A stretch of DNA of 64,000 bases from an uncultured Acidobacteriota bacterium (GTDB lineage: Bacteria; Acidobacteriota; Thermoanaerobaculia; Multivoradales; JAGPDF01), in contig CAVOXC010000017.1 in NCBI GenBank assembly GCA_963700315.1, positions 28,062 to 92,061 of the forward strand, written 5' to 3'. The first letter of the stretch is position 1, and each line of letters begins with the position of its first letter. Below the pieces are notes generated by a model. It worked only from the letters and a program-made list of their open reading frames with translations, did not search any database and was not told the origin of the DNA. This document shows positions 17,044 through 26,870 of the stretch, piece after piece. Both the position numbers and the translations under genes were made by a program.

Positions 17044-19156
17044 CTATCGAACCTGGATCGTGACGGTCAGAGTCCCCTGGTTGTCGCTGAAGTTGCCCGG
17101 GGTGTCGTTGATGCTCAGGTAGAGACGACCGGCGGCCGGGGTCGGGCCGGAGAAGCGCTCACCGACAGTGAAGGTGGCGCTCGCCCACCTTGGCGACGAG
17201 CGCGGCGAGGGGGGCCGACGCCACGATCGTGCCCGGATGGATGTACTCACCGTGGCCGCCCGGGCCGAGAGCGGGCGGGCCGGTGTTCGACCAGCGGCCG
17301 GTCGCGGCGAGCTCGATCGACTGTCCTGTCGTGACATCGACGCCGGTGTCGAGCCACTCGACCGTGGCGGGCACCTCGATGCGGACCGGCTGGGCCGGGA
17401 TCGCGGCGCGCTGCGTCAGCATGCCGACGTTCGAGTAGGTCCGCGTCACGGTGGCCACCGACTCGCGCCAGGCCGGGGTCGTCTCGACCTGAACCTCCTT
17501 CGGGCCCGGCGCCGGAGCGGGTTCGGGCTCGACTCTCTGGTACCGCTCGACGGCTTGCAGCTGGTCGGGGGAGAGCCTGTCCGCCGTGACGCCGCGCAAG
17601 ACCTTCTGGCTCGCCGGAGCGTCGCCGACCTCCTCGAAGCGCTCGGCGGCCAGCAACCGTACCTCGAGTCCGCGCTTCGGCTCGCCGGTGGCTTCGAGTC
17701 CCTGGGCGTAGAGCAGCGTCAGGTCGGGATCGACCTTCGACTTCTGGGGCAGGTCGGAGCGCGACGTTCCGGCATCGAGCCGCCGCGCGACATCGAATGC
17801 GCGGCCGAGCTGGAAGAGCGCCGTCGTCGGCTGGCTCGTCGTCCCCCAACCCATCCTGCCGTTCACCGCGAGCGAGCCGTAGATCTGCCCCAAGGCGCGG
17901 TGGTACTCGAGGATCTTGTCGAGCTGACCGAGCTCGTAGGCGCGGTTCTTCGCGGCGAAGAGCCGGCCGGCGGGGTCGGCGTACTCTGCGGCGAGCGCGT
18001 CGAGCGCGGGGAGGTCGCGGCGCTCGACGTAGAGGTTGGCGAGGCTGCGCAGCGTCAGCGGGTCGGGGTCGTCGGCGAGGTCGACCGCGGCGCGGTAGCA
18101 GGCGGCGGCGGTCGCCGTTTCACGCCGTTCGCGGTAGCCGTCCCCGATCGCGCGCAGCGCCGCGCGAATGGCGTCCCGCCGCGGGAGGCCGCGCCTCTCG
18201 GTCCACTCGTCGTAGGGCTCACGCCACCAGCGGAACGGCTGCGCGTAGTTGCCGGGCGAGGCGTAGAGGCGGAGCAGCTCGGTGACGCCCGCGCCGAGAC
18301 CCGGCTCGTCGACGAAGCGCCGCAGGCGCCGAACTCTGGGCGATTCGAGGATCTCCAGAGGCGTGGCGTGCGCCTGCGCGAAGCTCGCCGCGATGGCGGC
18401 AAGCAACTCGGCGCGCAGGTAGGAGGGCCAGCCCGCCTCGAGCGCCGCCAGGGCGAGATCGGCGCCGCGCGAGGCCTGCCGGCCCTCGACCAGGCGCCAG
18501 AGGTAGCCGAGCAGGCGGTGCGGATCGCGGTCGCGAAGCTCGAGGTAGCGCCGCTGCAGGAGCTCGTGCGGCGCGTCGAGCCGCGGCTCGAGCAGCACGA
18601 CCTCCTCGTAGACTCGGAAGGCTTCGTCCCAGCGTTCCTGGTCGCGCAGGAAGTCGGCCCACTGCTGGAGGTAGAAGACCCGTCGGCTCCCGGGGCGCGA
18701 GGCGGCGAGCTCGAACGACTTCGCGGCGTTCGCCGAGTCGCCCAGGGCGAGCTGCGCCTTGCCGAGGTTGTAGAGCGCGGCGACCGCGCCGGGCTTGAGC
18801 TCGAGGACGCGGCTGTAGCCGGCCGCGGCGTGGCGCAGCAGCTCCTGAGCCTCCTCTCCTTCCCCCTGTTTCTCGGCCGCGAGCTGCTCCTCGACCGCCT
18901 GCTCGAATCGGAGCCGAGCTTCGACTGTGGCGGCCTCGGTCTTGGCCAGAGCGGCTTCGTTCCGGGCTGCCGCGGCTTCCGCCTGGGCCGCGACGGCTTC
19001 GGCTTTCACCGCGGCAGCTGCGGGCTCGACCGCCTTGGCCGTGACCTCGGCCCTGGCGCGGACTTCGGGACTCGCCTGGGCCTCGAGCGGAGCGTGTGCG
19101 CAGAGCGCGAGCGCGACCAGGGTGACGGACCCGACCCTTGTCGACTTTGCGCTCAT
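17044..19156 (-). CDS. Secreted TPR-repeat protein with a C-terminal lectin-like beta-sandwich domain (PA-IL/LecA-like ending). One apparent frameshift near 17195
   Basis: Start MSAKSTRVGSVTLVALALCAHAPLEAQA (signal; codon 195 of ORF 17159..19738). A coiled-coil, Ala-rich segment is followed by TPR-like helices (ALYNLGKAQLALGDSANAAKSFELA..., WDEAFRVYEEVVLLEP...). The C-terminus ...TGQSIELAATGRWSNTGPPALGPGGHGEYIHPGTIVASAPLAALVAKVG shifts frame into ORF 17044..17337: ATFTVGERFSGPTPAAGRLYLSINDTPGNFSDNQGTLTVTIQVR*. Its ATG overlaps the stop of the upstream gene (ATGA). Confidence 0.65.
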
Positions 19157-20067
19157 GGCGTCCCCCCTTCCTCGAGCGTCGTGACGATGCCGGCCTCGAC
19201 CTCCAGCGGATTCGGCTTGTAGATCTTCATGTAGACGAAGGGCTCCCGACAGGTGTCGAGCAGCTCTTGCAGGCGTGGGTGCCAGGCGAGTGGCAGCGCG
19301 TTGACGGCCGGAGCGCCGGAGACGATGCCGGCGCAAGCGAAGCTCTCGAGCAGGAGCTGGGTGCGCTCCCCCTCGATGTCCCCCGGGTGGGCGACGAGGC
19401 GGCGATCGAGGCGATTCTGGAAACGGACCTCGATCTCCGACTCGGCTTTGGCCTTGAGCCCCTTGAGCGGCAGGTAGAGCTTCTGCAGCGCGGCGTCGGG
19501 CGCGAGCGATTTCGAGACGACGATCTCCGAGAGGAAGCGCTCCTCGAGCGCCCGCATGGCGTCGGCGTCCTCGGCGACACGGTGCGCCAGCTCGGCGACC
19601 TTGGCGACGAGCTCCGTGGCGGTCATCTCGGGCGCGGCGAGGTCGCAGAGCGCCGAGAGCTCCAGCTCCGGGTAGGTCCAGGCGACGATGCCCCCACGCT
19701 CTGCCCGGAATCGCGCGCGGACCGAGGGCGGATCGCACGCGCCGCTCGGACCGTCGGCGAGGAGCAGTACCCAGCGCGGCGCGTCCGCCACGGCGTCTGG
19801 CGCCGCCGGCGTCCAGTCGAGGTAGAGGAAGCTCGCGTGCGCGATGCGCGCGAGCTCGGTCTCGACCGCCGCGACGACCTCCGGTGTGGTCAGGCGCGTC
19901 TGGTCCAGGGTCGAGCCCGGCTCGATCCGGAGCTCGACGAGCACCTGACGCAGAGGCTGGGCGGTCGCGGGCAGCGCGACGAGGAGCGCGGCCGCGACCA
20001 GCGGCGCGAACCGACGGCGCGGCCGCTCAGAGGTTCGCGGCGGGTTCGACGAACACCAGGTCGACAT
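19153..20067 (-). CDS. Hypothetical secreted protein (304 aa). Overlaps the 3' end of the CHAT gene by 41 nt and the start of the TPR gene by 4 nt
   Basis: MSTWCSSNPPRTSERPRRRFAPLVAAALLVALPATAQP is a signal peptide. Clean ORF with normal complexity and good GC3 bias. Confidence 0.55.
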   Translation of the reverse strand: MSTWCSSNPPRTSERPRRRFAPLVAAALLVALPATAQPLRQVLVELRIEPGSTLDQTRLTTPEVVAAVETELARIAHASFLYLDWTPAAPDAVADAPRWVLLLADGPSGACDPPSVRARFRAERGGIVAWTYPELELSALCDLAAPEMTATELVAKVAELAHRVAEDADAMRALEERFLSEIVVSKSLAPDAALQKLYLPLKGLKAKAESEIEVRFQNRLDRRLVAHPGDIEGERTQLLLESFACAGIVSGAPAVNALPLAWHPRLQELLDTCREPFVYMKIYKPNPLEVEAGIVTTLEEGGTP

Positions 20068-25345: not shown

Positions 25346-25372
25346 GGGGTCCTCCTGGTCGGGGCGGCCGGG

Positions 25373-26870
25373 TCAGCACTCGGCGCGCAGCTCGGCGAGG
25401 CGCCGGACGACGTCGGCCGGCAGCTCGCGGCCGCGAGCGTCGGCGAATCCGAGCTGCTCGAGGTAGCGGTCGAGATCGGGTTGACAGGCGAGAAAGCGGA
25501 GAACGTTCTCGGGCCGATAGAGCGCGCGCAGGTCGGGGAAGCGGAGCGCCCCGTTGTCGTTGCGCGCCGCCGGGTCGGCCTGGATTCGATGGATGACCGA
25601 CGCCGAGAGCGAGAGGTTGGCCGTGGCGGGCCAGTCCGAGAGGCTGCGGCGGCCCCGTCCGTAGCGCAGGCGCATGCCGTCGAGCAGGCGATAGGTCAGC
25701 GACTCGCTGCGGTAGAGACGATCCTGTGGATAGCGCCGATAGGCCGCGGCGAACGACTTGTCGACAGCGAGACCCTGGCCGGCGGCTTCGTCGAGGATCC
25801 AGTGGAAGGCGAGGTTGGCGAGCCCGTCGTCGACGTAGCCGCCGCCGACGTTGGAGTGGACGCCGGCGAACCAGCGCTGCTCGAGCGTCTGGCCGGGGCG
25901 GTGATCGGTCCAGACCTCGGGGCGGAAGTCGTAGCGCGCCTCGTCGATCGCGAGCGCCTGGCGGGCGTGCCGCACGCAGGCCGCGGGGCGCGCGCCGACG
26001 TGGAAGCTGCGGCTCGCGGTCGAGGTGCTCTCGCCCGCCGCCCGGAAGCGCGAGCCGAGCGCCATCACCGTGTCCCAGACGCCGAGGAAGGTGATGTCGA
26101 CCGGCTGGAAGGGCGCGAGCGGTTCCCGTGGGCTCTTCTCGGCGGCGCGCCAGGAGTCGATGGCGTGCCGGACCTCGGCGGCGCTGCGACGGCCGCCGCG
26201 CGGCGACGTACTCGCGGAAGAAGCGCGGTAGGTAGTAGGCGTCCCCCTTCGCCGGCAGGCCGCCCGACCAGTCGAGAAAGCGCGTCAGCGCCCGCGCCGT
26301 CGCCGCGCCCCGGCTGAAGCCGAAGACGAAGACCTCATCGCCCGGAGTCCGATTGTGCGCGAGGAAAGTCAACGCGTCCTCGACGTTGGCCTCGAAGCCC
26401 GCGCCGAAGGCACCGCCCAGGAGCTTGTCCGCCGTGCTCAGCAGCCGATTCGAGGCGCCGGGGTACTTCGCCAGCGATCCGACCCCGACGTCGTAGTAAA
26501 CGACCTGCTCGCGGCCGGAGTCTTGGTCGACCGGCAGCACCGAGCGGCAGAGCTTGAGGACGTTCGAGGGCTTGAGCACCTCGTGCCCGTCGTCGCGCTT
26601 CTTCTTGACGTACGTGCTGTTCCAGGTGCCGTCGAGGCAGAGGATCCATCGTCGAGGCGTCATCTGCGGGGCCTCCGTGGCATCGGTTCGGGTCGGAAAG
26701 AGCAAGAGAAAGAGCGTGGCGACCAGAGTGAGCAGTGGATGACGAAGAGTGCGGCGGCACTGCGACGAGGGGGCGCGACGAGAGCGGCGCGGGCAGAAGC
26801 GGCCGCGCTCCGCCGGGAGCCCGTCAGGGCCCCTCGGTGCTCTCGAAGTCCAACCGTGCCGACGATTCAT
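25373..26870 (-). CDS. DUF2235-family alpha/beta hydrolase (Tle1-like phospholipase/lipase fold) with an N-terminal hydrophobic leader. One or two apparent frameshifts near 26100-26240
   Basis: The N-part (start of ORF 20334..26870) reads ...RWILCLDGTWNSTY...VVYYDVGVGS...EVFVFGFSRGAATARALTRFL (GxSxG). The C-part (ORF 25373..26068) has the DUF2235 hallmark QRWFAGVHSNVGGGY. A hydrophobic leader LLTLVATLFLLLFPTRTDA follows an ATG at 26870. Confidence 0.6.

What the first reader, a model, noticed from the sequence alone, without database searches (positions are those of the whole stretch)
17044..26870. Tight six-gene operon combining a DUF2235 lipase-like protein, an intracellular subtilase, an MBL-fold hydrolase, a membrane-anchored CHAT caspase-like protease, a secreted protein and a TPR-lectin protein
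All six genes are on the minus strand with 27-, 19- and 19-nt spacers, then a 41-nt overlap and a 4-nt ATGA overlap. That pattern indicates co-transcription and translational coupling. The mix is odd. Two proteases have no signal peptide: the S8 subtilase with a long N-terminal extension and the CHAT domain with an intact H/C dyad (the CHAT protein does carry C-terminal TM helices). Between them sits an MBL-fold protein with a non-canonical HxDxDH metal motif. The flanking proteins have signal peptides: a DUF2235 (Tle1-like phospholipase fold) protein with an intact GxSxG and WFAGVHSNVGGGY, and a TPR protein ending in a PA-IL/LecA-like lectin module. I do not recognise this combination as a named defence, toxin-delivery or RiPP-processing system. 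It looks like a candidate conflict or regulated-proteolysis module: a caspase-like plus subtilase cascade with a lipase effector, envelope-anchored by TM and TPR-lectin parts.
Basis: partly seen in the sequence, partly recalled or inferred. Interest (0 to 1): 0.8.

Follow-up and report, generated by a model that had tools for sequence, protein, structure and literature searches.

The report
Protease-gated nuclease operon with envelope parts
This is a real, conserved six-gene operon whose core (a subtilisin-like protease next to a latent DNA-cutting enzyme) belongs to a bacterial anti-virus "protease unlocks nuclease" family first described in late 2025. Here that core is extended by a membrane-spanning caspase-like protease and three exported proteins, a combination I did not find described.

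Summary
The six minus-strand genes exist and every domain call holds: DUF2235/Tle1-like, Peptidase_S8, MBL, CHAT, an orphan secreted protein and a TPR+PA-IL protein. These are probably assembly errors, because the neighbouring RHS and M36 genes are also split across frames.

The S8+MBL pair is the conserved core. It lies adjacent in 47 of 80 loci from more than ten phyla. The MBL is a homologue of Avs1a/HamM/LmuA "gated pro-nucleases", which proteases activate (Tuck 2025; Evans 2025). Both papers list a subtilase-associated clade but did not study it.

The CHAT domain belongs to the subfamily found beside MBLs in Chloroflexota. The whole six-gene order recurs in at least 12 other loci, mostly Acidobacteriota/Thermoanaerobaculia MAGs and metagenomes. 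Flanks are unrelated wherever annotated flanks were available. The orphan gene falls to 27-37% identity, and two loci carry an extra C11 protease.

Most likely this is a conflict or cell-death system. Proteolysis by S8, CHAT or both would license a DNase, and a periplasmic module (CHAT C-terminus, orphan protein, TPR-lectin) could be the sensor. It is a new variant of a known kind, and the sensing route and the lipase role are inferred.

The parts
25373..26870 (-). Gene 1: DUF2235 / Tle1-like alpha/beta-hydrolase (lipase-like). It is interrupted by a +1 frameshift near 26196-26200. The conserved core starts at the ATG at 26663. The ATG at 26870 would add a 69-residue leader that contains a signal-peptide-like stretch (LLTLVATLFLLLF..TDA).
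   Evidence: Pfam PF09994 3.8e-66 on the frame-corrected protein. Frames and junction were mapped. GFSRG lies at 26307..26321. Homologues mostly carry signal or lipoprotein leaders. In-frame start codons are listed.
23093..25345 (-). Gene 2: cytoplasmic KP-43-type subtilase, 750 aa. Residues 1-249 (24599..25345) form a pro-region-like extension of three conserved modules with no signal peptide. Residues 250-750 hold the catalytic domain and a C-terminal beta-domain. Triad motifs lie at 24485..24505 (D), 24383..24403 (H) and 23699..23719 (S).
   Evidence: Pfam S8 2.1e-48. PDB KP-43/SubHal 5e-75 over residues 250-740. The N-terminal alignment across phyla has no Pfam hit. The full-length protein is conserved directly upstream of MBL in 47/80 loci.
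21968..23074 (-). Gene 3: MBL-fold protein, 368 aa, a homologue of protease-gated pro-nucleases (Avs1a/HamM/LmuA-H). The HxDxDH motif lies at 22871..22888.
   Evidence: PADLOC LmuA 2.4e-48, Avs1a 2.2e-38, RTasMBL 3.8e-30. NCBIfam Avs1a 1.1e-47. 26% identity, E 3.5e-28, to EpiAvs1a. AF2 pLDDT 87.7. Foldseek places it among MBL phosphodiesterases and nucleases.
22670..22723 (-). Candidate gating loop 1 of the MBL (residues ~118-135).
   Evidence: Lowest-confidence segment of the model, with pLDDT <50 at residues 126-130. The Avs1a I134 cut site aligns to window residue ~135. The region is rich in indels across the family.
22391..22462 (-). Candidate gating loop 2 of the MBL (residues ~205-228).
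   Evidence: pLDDT is 60-72 here. The Avs1a I234 cut site aligns to window residue ~207. The loop is ~27 residues shorter than in Avs1a.
20027..21949 (-). Gene 4: CHAT caspase-like protease, 640 aa. It comprises a cytoplasmic CHAT domain (20795..21949; His at 21254..21274, Cys at 21089..21106), three hydrophobic segments (20495..20767), and a ~155-aa C-terminal domain predicted to be periplasmic (20030..20494).
   Evidence: Pfam CHAT 3.4e-23. The dyad is conserved, and the domain is 31-40% identical to CHATs beside MBLs in Chloroflexota. Topology comes from hydropathy and a K/R-rich second loop. The C-terminal domain is conserved next to a distant gene-5 relative in L092.
19153..20067 (-). Gene 5: orphan secreted protein, 304 aa, with a signal peptide and four conserved Cys. 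It overlaps the CHAT gene by 41 nt.
17044..19156 (-). Gene 6: exported TPR/helical-repeat protein ending in a LecA/PA-IL-like lectin domain. It is interrupted by a +1 frameshift near 17175-17185 and shares a 4-nt ATGA overlap with gene 5.
   Evidence: Pfam PA-IL 9e-8 plus TPR families on the frame-corrected protein. LecA (PDB 1l7l) 6.7e-7 over residues 18-116 of 121. The frameshift was mapped. Orthologues are intact in L001, L093, L094 and L095.

Best explanation
The locus is an elaborated member of the protease/pro-nuclease conflict systems.

Shown. The MBL protein is a homologue of the 'gated' DNases Avs1a, HamM and LmuA-H. It is always paired with a cytoplasmic KP-43-type pro-subtilase. The neighbouring CHAT protease belongs to the subfamily that accompanies MBLs elsewhere. 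The six genes travel together as a unit.

Inferred. The MBL is made as an inactive zymogen whose two active-site-proximal loops must be cut. The cut is made by the S8 protease, by the CHAT protease, or by a CHAT-to-S8 cascade in which CHAT removes the S8 pro-region. The freed Zn-dependent DNase then degrades DNA, causing abortive infection or programmed death.

Inferred, less certain. The trigger may be sensed outside the cytoplasm. The CHAT protein spans the membrane with its ~155-aa C-terminal domain in the periplasm. There it would work with the fast-evolving orphan protein and the TPR-lectin protein, so that an envelope event (phage adsorption or injection, a foreign glycan, or membrane damage) switches on the cytoplasmic protease. 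The exported DUF2235 lipase could be an accessory periplasmic effector, or only a co-transcribed neighbour.
For: MBL identity.
- PADLOC LmuA 2.4e-48 and Avs1a 2.2e-38; NCBIfam Avs1a 1.1e-47.
- 26% identity, E 3.5e-28, to the experimentally studied EpiAvs1a, with the same HxDxDH motif.
- The two experimentally mapped Avs1a cut sites fall in the only two low-confidence loops of the AF2 model.

Published mechanism and clades. The trypsin- and caspase-type systems have been characterised. A subtilase-associated clade is listed in PMC12799240 and PMC12642450.

Co-conservation.
- S8 lies directly upstream of MBL in 47 of 80 loci across many phyla, aligned over all 750 residues.
- g4-like CHAT lies beside S8-less MBLs in 9 Chloroflexota loci, and near S8-MBL in L006, L016, L036, L072 and L073.
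- The full block recurs in L007-L012, L089-L091 and L093-L095, with unrelated flanks wherever annotated flanks were available. Two of these loci carry an added Peptidase_C11.

Divergence gradient. Identities to the window are: g2 71-85%, g3 66-83%, g1 64-82%, g4 51-76%, g6 44-62%, g5 27-62%. The fastest-evolving parts are the exported ones, as expected for sensor components.

Localisation.
- The S8 N-terminus lacks a signal peptide, and residues 250-740 match mature KP-43. That leaves a 249-residue pro-like region.
- CHAT topology is N-in, C-out.
- g5 and g6 have signal peptides.
- The g6 C-terminus is a LecA-like lectin.
Against: - No member of the subtilase clade has been tested experimentally.
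- The window MBL loops are shorter than those of Avs1a (loop 2 by ~27 residues), and no cut-site motif could be identified.
- Nothing shows which protease cuts what.
- The S8 pro-region gave no Pfam match.
- The locus is not in a recognisable defence island. Its neighbours are alpha/beta-hydrolases, a beta-lactamase-like esterase, an M36 protease and an RHS toxin. The other loci have housekeeping-type flanks.
- No relatives were found on viral contigs.
- DUF2235 homologues at 78-83% identity occur without the system.
- The middle TM segment of CHAT is weakly hydrophobic in some orthologues. If it is not a TM, the C-terminal domain would be cytoplasmic.
- Two genes are frameshifted here, so this particular copy could be inactive.
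Confidence: 0.6

Rival explanations
1. Two or three separate units sit side by side. These would be an S8+MBL defence pair, an unrelated envelope module (TM-CHAT, orphan protein, TPR-lectin) that cleaves some other substrate, and a secreted lipase. They would share a transcript but not a pathway.
For: S8+MBL is self-sufficient as a two-gene unit in ~40 loci. DUF2235 homologues occur alone, and L008 lacks the gene. Evans et al. report effector-less defensive caspase-like proteases.
Against: Every gene-5 relative with enough flanking sequence was in the same MBL-containing block, even at 27-37% identity. The CHAT domain is specifically similar (31-40% identity) to CHATs adjacent to MBLs in another phylum. 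The tight spacing and overlaps are conserved.
Confidence: 0.2
2. The operon is not an anti-phage system. It would be an endogenous regulated-death, stress or developmental module, or a defence against interbacterial attack sensed at the envelope.
For: There is no defence-island context and no phage association. The neighbour is an RHS polymorphic toxin. The lectin and lipase parts fit cell-surface biology. Evans et al. note that protease-effector modules may respond to general stress.
Against: Every characterised relative of the MBL acts in phage defence. The RHS neighbour is not conserved in other block loci.
Confidence: 0.12
3. This copy is a decaying, non-functional remnant. On this reading the frameshifts in genes 1 and 6 are real mutations.
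For: Gene 1 and gene 6 each have a single extra base relative to the intact orthologue.
Against: The flanking M36 and RHS genes are each split over two or three frames. That points to frequent indel errors in a long-read MAG assembly. The related MAG records use contig_NNNNN names. The four central genes are intact, with strong GC3 periodicity.
Confidence: 0.15
4. The cluster is an ordinary set of secreted hydrolases for nutrient acquisition (protease, lipase, esterase).
For: The window is rich in secreted or hydrolytic enzymes. KP-43-type subtilases are classically secreted.
Against: S8, MBL and the CHAT domain lack signal peptides. The MBL is an Avs1a-type nuclease homologue. The S8-MBL pairing is conserved across phyla.
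Confidence: 0.03

Closest known systems
Protease-gated MBL pro-nucleases: HamM (Hachiman), Avs1a (AVAST type 1), LmuA-H (Lamassu), VcMBL/AtMBL with Avs2/Avs4 (Tuck et al. 2025, PMC12799240; Evans et al. 2025, PMC12642450)
   Same: The MBL protein is homologous over its full length and has the same HxDxDH site. Disordered loops sit at the positions of the mapped cut sites. A protease gene lies adjacent and is co-conserved.
   Different: The partner is a stand-alone KP-43-type subtilase with a long pro-like N-terminus. The known systems instead have a trypsin-like domain fused to a STAND, Hachiman or Lamassu sensor. The loops are shorter. No NTPase sensor is present. The NCBIfam Avs1a score of 162.7 bits is far below the equivalog cutoff of 420.
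Subtilase-associated MBL clade ('Clade 3' of Evans et al.; 'subtilase-' operonic family in Tuck et al. fig. S2)
   Same: This is the clade to which the window's S8+MBL pair belongs. A rough NJ tree places it among S8-linked MBLs.
   Different: The clade was only listed in those papers, not characterised. In the text I could read (main texts of both papers, supplements of Tuck et al. only) there is no mention of the six- or seven-gene form with TM-CHAT, DUF2235, the orphan protein and the TPR-lectin.
Canu (caspase-nuclease, CanABC of Klebsiella aerogenes)
   Same: A caspase-family protease is encoded beside a gated MBL nuclease. Such loci vary in organisation and often carry TPR proteins.
   Different: In Canu the caspase lies upstream, has an Ig-like domain and works with CanB. 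Here the CHAT lies downstream and is membrane-anchored, and a subtilase is also present.
CHAT proteases of CRISPR type III (Csx29/Craspase; the SAVED-CHAT protease cascade)
   Same: A CHAT His/Cys protease is used as a switch in a conflict system. There is precedent for protease cascades.
   Different: There are no cas genes, no SAVED domain and no TPR fused to the CHAT. The PADLOC SAVED_CHAT hit is weak (4.5e-7) and is not accompanied by any SAVED-domain or cas hit.
T6SS phospholipase effector Tle1 (DUF2235)
   Same: The catalytic domain family is the same (PF09994, 3.8e-66), with the GxSxG nucleophile motif.
   Different: No T6SS genes lie nearby, and most homologues carry an N-terminal Sec or lipoprotein-type leader. 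The only PDB hit is a borderline one (E 0.009) to a 'putative type VI secretion protein', 6sjl.
LecA / PA-IL galactophilic lectin of Pseudomonas aeruginosa
   Same: The C-terminal ~100 residues of gene 6 align to almost the whole lectin (E 6.7e-7). By eye against the LecA sequence recalled from memory (not fetched), the ..IND....DN.G.. calcium-site region appears retained.
   Different: Here the lectin is a terminal module on a 700-aa exported TPR/helical protein. Sugar specificity is unknown.

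Membership tests
Protease-gated MBL pro-nuclease / protease pairs | MBL-fold protein homologous to HamM/Avs1a/LmuA-H | tested here: met
   PADLOC LmuA 2.4e-48 and Avs1a 2.2e-38. NCBIfam Avs1a 1.1e-47. BLASTP to EpiAvs1a gives 26% identity over residues 1-331, E 3.5e-28.
Protease-gated MBL pro-nuclease / protease pairs | Intact metal-binding site (HxDxDH plus downstream Asp/His) | tested here: met
   H63, D65, D67, H68, D244, H249, H275 and H276 are invariant in 22 diverse homologues. They align with the Avs1a motifs.
Protease-gated MBL pro-nuclease / protease pairs | Protease gene adjacent to the nuclease and co-inherited | tested here: met
   S8 lies 0-300 nt upstream of MBL in 47 of 80 genome loci over many phyla. 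It is also present in L002-L006.
Protease-gated MBL pro-nuclease / protease pairs | Two active-site-blocking insertions carrying the protease cut sites | tested here: inconclusive
   The two low-pLDDT loops (121-140, 205-228) coincide with the aligned Avs1a I134 and I234 sites. The loops are shorter here and no conserved P1 residue could be assigned. Occlusion of the active site could not be inspected.
Protease-gated MBL pro-nuclease / protease pairs | Protease coupled to an infection sensor | tested here: inconclusive
   S8 has only a 249-residue pro-like N-terminus with no Pfam match. CHAT is fused to TM segments and a periplasmic domain. No STAND, Hachiman or Lamassu component is present.
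Protease-gated MBL pro-nuclease / protease pairs | Cleavage-dependent dsDNase activity and phage defence | not testable with these tools
   This needs biochemistry and phage assays.
AVAST type 1 (Avs1abc) | Avs1a equivalog together with the Avs1b STAND-protease | tested here: not met
   The Avs1a score is 162.7 bits against a cutoff of 420. No STAND NTPase lies in or beside the block.
Canu (CanABC) | Caspase with an Ig-like domain upstream of the nuclease, plus CanB | tested here: not met
   The CHAT lies downstream of the MBL and ends in TM segments plus an uncharacterised domain. Homology to CanA and CanB was not tested because their sequences were not retrieved.
T6SS Tle1 effector | DUF2235 catalytic domain with GxSxG | tested here: met
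   PF09994 3.8e-66 over the full profile. GFSRG is present.
T6SS Tle1 effector | Genetic linkage to T6SS (VgrG/Hcp/PAAR) and no Sec leader | tested here: not met
   No such genes appear in the window flanks or in any block locus. Homologues carry signal or lipoprotein leaders.
CRISPR-associated CHAT (Craspase / SAVED-CHAT) | CHAT fused to TPR or SAVED and linked to type III cas genes | tested here: not met
   Only the CHAT domain matches (Pfam 3.4e-23; PADLOC SAVED_CHAT 4.5e-7). No cas genes are nearby.
IetAS | IetS subtilase together with the IetA ATPase | tested here: not met
   IetS hits are weak (1e-12 and weaker, catalytic domain only) and there is no IetA. The NCBIfam IteS score is 38.9 bits against a cutoff of 900.
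KP-43-type subtilases | Catalytic domain plus a C-terminal beta-domain homologous to KP-43 | tested here: met
   Residues 250-740 align to residues 1-433 of 1wmd at 4.8e-75.
PA-IL / LecA lectins | Lectin domain homology | tested here: met
   Pfam PA-IL scores 32.6 bits, above the cutoff of 22.5. LecA 1l7l scores 6.7e-7. Sugar binding was not tested.

The most novel reading that the evidence does not exclude
An 'outside-in' death pathway in a diderm bacterium. A periplasmic receptor complex (TPR-lectin protein, the orphan gene-5 protein and the C-terminal domain of the CHAT protein) would detect an envelope event. It would activate a membrane-spanning caspase-like initiator. That protease would mature a cytoplasmic pro-subtilase executioner, in some relatives together with a C11 protease. 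The executioner would then unlock a DNase zymogen. This would be a bacterial analogue of the route from death receptor to initiator caspase to executioner to CAD, with an exported lipase as a second, periplasmic arm.
Probability: 0.25. Interest if true: 0.85.

Novelty: new variant of a known kind. Interest (0 to 1): 0.58.

Why it matters
Protease-licensed nucleases were shown only in late 2025 to be a widespread logic of bacterial immunity. The subtilase-linked clade was listed in that work but has not been studied.

This locus family offers a compact, conserved example in which that clade is wired to two further components. One is a second protease, sometimes joined by a third. The other is a set of exported proteins. 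If the inferred wiring is right, it would show that pro-nuclease systems can be triggered from outside the cytoplasm and can run as multi-step protease cascades. Both would be direct parallels to eukaryotic extrinsic apoptosis.

The broader S8+MBL pair, found in more than ten phyla without any recognisable sensor domain, also raises a clear question. What does a 'sensor-less' pro-subtilase detect?

Tried and rejected
- Exact-sequence look-up of the window's MBL, and of its 100%-identical database entry P0001, found no contig.
- Promoter and terminator consensus scans gave nothing above shuffles.
- A repeat search found no flanking direct repeats that would mark an island. There are no tRNA genes in the window.
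- Pfam at E<=1 on 20 S8 N-terminal regions gave no consistent family. Inhibitor_I9 appeared once at 0.13.
A narrower one returned only three metagenome loci.
- The MBL alignment found no relatives in viral contigs.
- The AFDB fold library was unavailable.
- I first concluded that gene 1 lacks a signal peptide, because the L001 orthologue starts at the conserved Met. I reversed this after seeing leaders in most homologues.
- I considered gene 5 as a Tli-like immunity protein for the lipase and rejected it. Gene 5 follows CHAT, not DUF2235 (L008, and L087/L088).
- I considered the GGTGGCTGGCACC motif as a sigma-54 promoter and rejected it, because no -12 element follows.
- The 2178-codon ORF at 20334..26870 is an alternative-frame artefact of 72% GC.

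Full report
**What is in the sequence**

The window is ~71% G+C. Third-position GC shows one continuous minus-strand coding block from ~17.1 to ~26.6 kb. It contains six genes:
- g1, 25373..26870
- g2, 23093..25345 (750 aa)
- g3, 21968..23074 (368 aa)
- g4, 20027..21949 (640 aa)
- g5, 19153..20067 (304 aa)
- g6, 17044..19156

Junctions are 27-, 18- and 18-nt spacers, then a 41-nt overlap and an ATGA overlap. Each start has an SD-like motif.

g1 and g6 have lengths that are not multiples of three. In each, the N- and C-terminal halves lie in different frames. Against the intact orthologues of L001/L007, the window has one extra base near 26196-26200 and one near 17175-17185.

The flanking M36 metalloprotease (27.2-29.9 kb) is split over three frames. 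The RHS gene (10.8-16.7 kb) alternates between frames. Pfam confirms consecutive profile segments in different frames. Indels are therefore frequent here. The simplest reading is long-read assembly error, since related MAG records use contig_NNNNN names. Real pseudogenisation cannot be excluded.

**Domain identities**

On the frame-corrected proteins, Pfam gives the following:
- T6SS_Tle1-like_cat, 3.8e-66
- Peptidase_S8, 2.1e-48
- CHAT, 3.4e-23
- PA-IL, 9e-8, plus TPR families
- a sub-threshold Lactamase_B hit, 8.5e-4
- nothing for g5

The MBL assignment is secured by other evidence:
- PADLOC LmuA 2.4e-48, Avs1a 2.2e-38 and RTasMBL 3.8e-30.
- NCBIfam Avs1a 1.1e-47 and ComEC_Rec2.
- An AF2 model with pLDDT 87.7.
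- Foldseek hits to MBL phosphodiesterases and nucleases: Pce, CPSF73, RNase J, RNase Z and type VII Cas14.

All catalytic motifs are intact.

In S8, residues 250-740 match the mature KP-43 and SubHal subtilases (5e-75). Residues 1-249 form three conserved modules joined by variable linkers. This region has no signal peptide and no Pfam match.

The g6 C-terminus aligns to nearly all of LecA (6.7e-7).

**Comparative genomics**

MBL homologues are abundant and well conserved. They are 53-87% identical among the top 120 hits, which come from Acidobacteriota, Chloroflexota and Actinomycetota.

A scan of one genome per species returned 80 loci. tblastn of the six window proteins against them, together with a rough NJ tree, shows three patterns:
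- *S8 plus MBL.* A full-length S8 lies directly upstream of the MBL in 47 loci. They come from Chloroflexota, Actinomycetota, Gemmatimonadota, Bacteroidota, Myxococcota, Planctomycetota, Verrucomicrobiota, Alpha-, Beta- and Gammaproteobacteria and Acidobacteriota. Nine further loci are cut at the contig end.
- *CHAT plus MBL without S8.* Nine Chloroflexota loci lack S8 but have a g4-like CHAT 0.6-5 kb from the MBL. It is 28-40% identical over residues 1-380, with the His/Cys dyad conserved.
- *CHAT near an S8-MBL pair.* A CHAT lies near S8-MBL in L006, L016, L036, L072 and L073.

**Conservation of the six-gene block**

The full order g1-g2-g3-g4-g5-g6 occurs in L007 (=L001), L009, L011 and L012. 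L008 has it without g1. L010 is a partial copy. All are Acidobacteriota/Thermoanaerobaculia MAGs by record title, except L007. That record is titled Gammaproteobacteria, although the MAGs encoding its closest MBL relatives are titled Thermoanaerobaculia or Acidobacteria.

g5 has only 14 word-sharing relatives. A profile search finds 78 representative clusters of ~300-aa proteins. Wherever enough context could be retrieved for distant g5 relatives (27-37% identity), the same block appears:
- L089 has the full six genes.
- L095 has DUF2235-S8-MBL-CHAT-g5-PA-IL.
- L093 has the same order with a Peptidase_C11 inserted between MBL and CHAT.
- L094 has MBL-C11-CHAT-g5-TPR/PA-IL.
- L092 is a 1.8-kb contig. 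It carries a g4-C-terminus homologue (32% identity, 8e-20), then g5, then a signal-peptide protein.
- L090 and L091 are partial copies, with CHAT C-terminus-g5-g6 and g5-g6 respectively.

Flanking genes differ in every locus with annotated flanks and share nothing with the window.

Identity to the window falls in this order:
- S8, 71-85%
- MBL, 66-83%
- DUF2235, 64-82%
- CHAT, 51-76%
- g6, 44-62%
- g5, 27-62%

**The lipase**

g1-like DUF2235 proteins at 60-86% identity are far more numerous than the blocks. Two at 78-83% identity sit in unrelated neighbourhoods.

Most carry an N-terminal signal or lipoprotein leader, including the block-linked ones in L011/L089, L012 and L093. L007 lacks one. 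In the window the leader requires the ATG at 26870 and an unusually long Arg-rich n-region.

g1 is therefore probably exported and only loosely tied to the system.

**Topology**

g4 orthologues have three hydrophobic segments at ~395-415, ~425-448 and ~465-485. The second loop is K/R-rich (4-6 K/R in the orthologues where all three segments were scored). This predicts a cytoplasmic CHAT domain and a periplasmic C-terminal domain of ~155-165 residues.

**Comparison with the literature**

Two papers from late 2025 define the family.

*Tuck et al., Science (PMC12799240).* They show that the MBL proteins HamM and Avs1a are pro-nucleases. These are opened by a partner trypsin-like protease, which removes gating loops. 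They also describe caspase-nuclease 'canu' loci. Their fig. [quoted passage not shown]

*Evans et al. (PMC12642450).* They show that VcMBL is cut at I133 and I232 and then becomes a Zn-dependent dsDNase. They define clades 1 (trypsin), 2 (caspase-like) and 3 (S8).

I retrieved EpiAvs1a from the Tuck supplement and aligned it to the window MBL. They are 26% identical (E 3.5e-28) and share the HxDxDH motif. The Avs1a cut sites I134 and I234 map to window residues ~135 and ~207. These fall inside the two low-confidence loops of the model, although the window loops are shorter.

Literature searches for subtilase + metallo-beta-lactamase + phage defence, and for MBL/subtilisin/CHAT terms, turned up no description of the multi-gene form. 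The DUF2235 + CHAT search required only three of five terms, and none of its 15 listed papers contained DUF2235. The two papers' accessible text does not mention TM-CHAT or subtilase details beyond the clade listing.

**Interpretation**

Shown:
- The operon is real and conserved as a unit.
- Its core is a subtilase-clade protease/pro-nuclease pair.
- Its CHAT belongs to the MBL-associated subfamily.

Inferred:
- Proteolysis by S8 and/or CHAT, possibly as a CHAT-to-S8 cascade through the S8 pro-region, licenses the DNase.
- The periplasmic trio (g4 C-terminus, g5, g6) is the input.
- The exported lipase is accessory.

Points against, or still open:
- There is no defence-island context.
- No cut-site motif was found.
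- The gating loops are shorter than in Avs1a.
- No experiment exists on any subtilase-clade member.
- The second TM segment of CHAT is uncertain.
- The two frameshifts in this copy are unresolved.

**Verdict**

It is a new variant of a known kind. Interest is 0.58.

Noticed in passing
window 10770..16685 (- strand): A large RHS/YD-repeat polymorphic-toxin gene lies directly downstream of gene 6. It is split between at least two alternating reading frames. Pfam finds 8 RHS repeats in one frame and 6 in another. Its 3' end lies in a lower-GC stretch (10-12 kb is 61% GC against 71% for the window). It is not conserved next to the block in other loci.
   Followed up: partly
window 27230..29903 (+ strand): A secreted M36 fungalysin-like metalloprotease is divergent from gene 1. 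It is split over three frames: the FTP propeptide, then M36 profile positions 68-229, then 247-368. This is evidence that indels are frequent in this assembly.
   Followed up: yes
window 1157, 7058, 16795, 16819, 16930, 27042, 33617, 44776: The 13-mer GGTGGCTGGCACC (core of AGGTG-N5-CACCT) occurs 8 times against 0.16 expected. All copies are on the + strand, and those whose position was checked lie in intergenic or 5' regions. Three copies lie between gene 6 and the RHS gene, and one lies in the divergent region between gene 1 and the M36 gene. The motif is absent from all 95 fetched loci. It may be a genome-specific operator or an oriented motif.
   Followed up: partly
window 15902..16372: Five to six tandem copies of a 75-nt unit, encoding 25-aa repeats of the form ..AADAARAWPRSERAASEGVG.. 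They lie in the ORF at the 5' end of the RHS region.
   Followed up: no
window 20334..26870 (- strand): A 2178-codon open frame shares the gene 1 start codon and runs through S8, MBL and part of CHAT in an alternative frame. It has Arg/Pro/Ala-rich composition and the wrong GC3 phase. It is a high-GC artefact, not a gene.
   Followed up: yes
L093:6645-7880 and L094:1054-2334: Two divergent versions of the block carry an extra Peptidase_C11 (clostripain-like) gene between MBL and CHAT. These systems therefore encode three different proteases.
   Followed up: partly
L043:8782-16239, L044, L056, L058: Chloroflexota MBL loci without S8 carry one or two very large CHAT proteins (627-1295 aa) downstream. 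A ~400-450-aa ORF often sits in between. These are probably the caspase-type clade with diverse sensor extensions.
   Followed up: no
L007 (CAWFGC010000012.1): The record is titled 'uncultured Gammaproteobacteria bacterium', but the MAGs that encode the closest relatives of its MBL gene are titled Thermoanaerobaculia or Acidobacteria. The taxonomic label may be wrong.
   Followed up: no
window 2135..9730 and 29996..33347: The surroundings are rich in alpha/beta-hydrolases (four), a class-C beta-lactamase-like esterase and an NmrA-like protein. No recognisable defence genes are present.
   Followed up: partly
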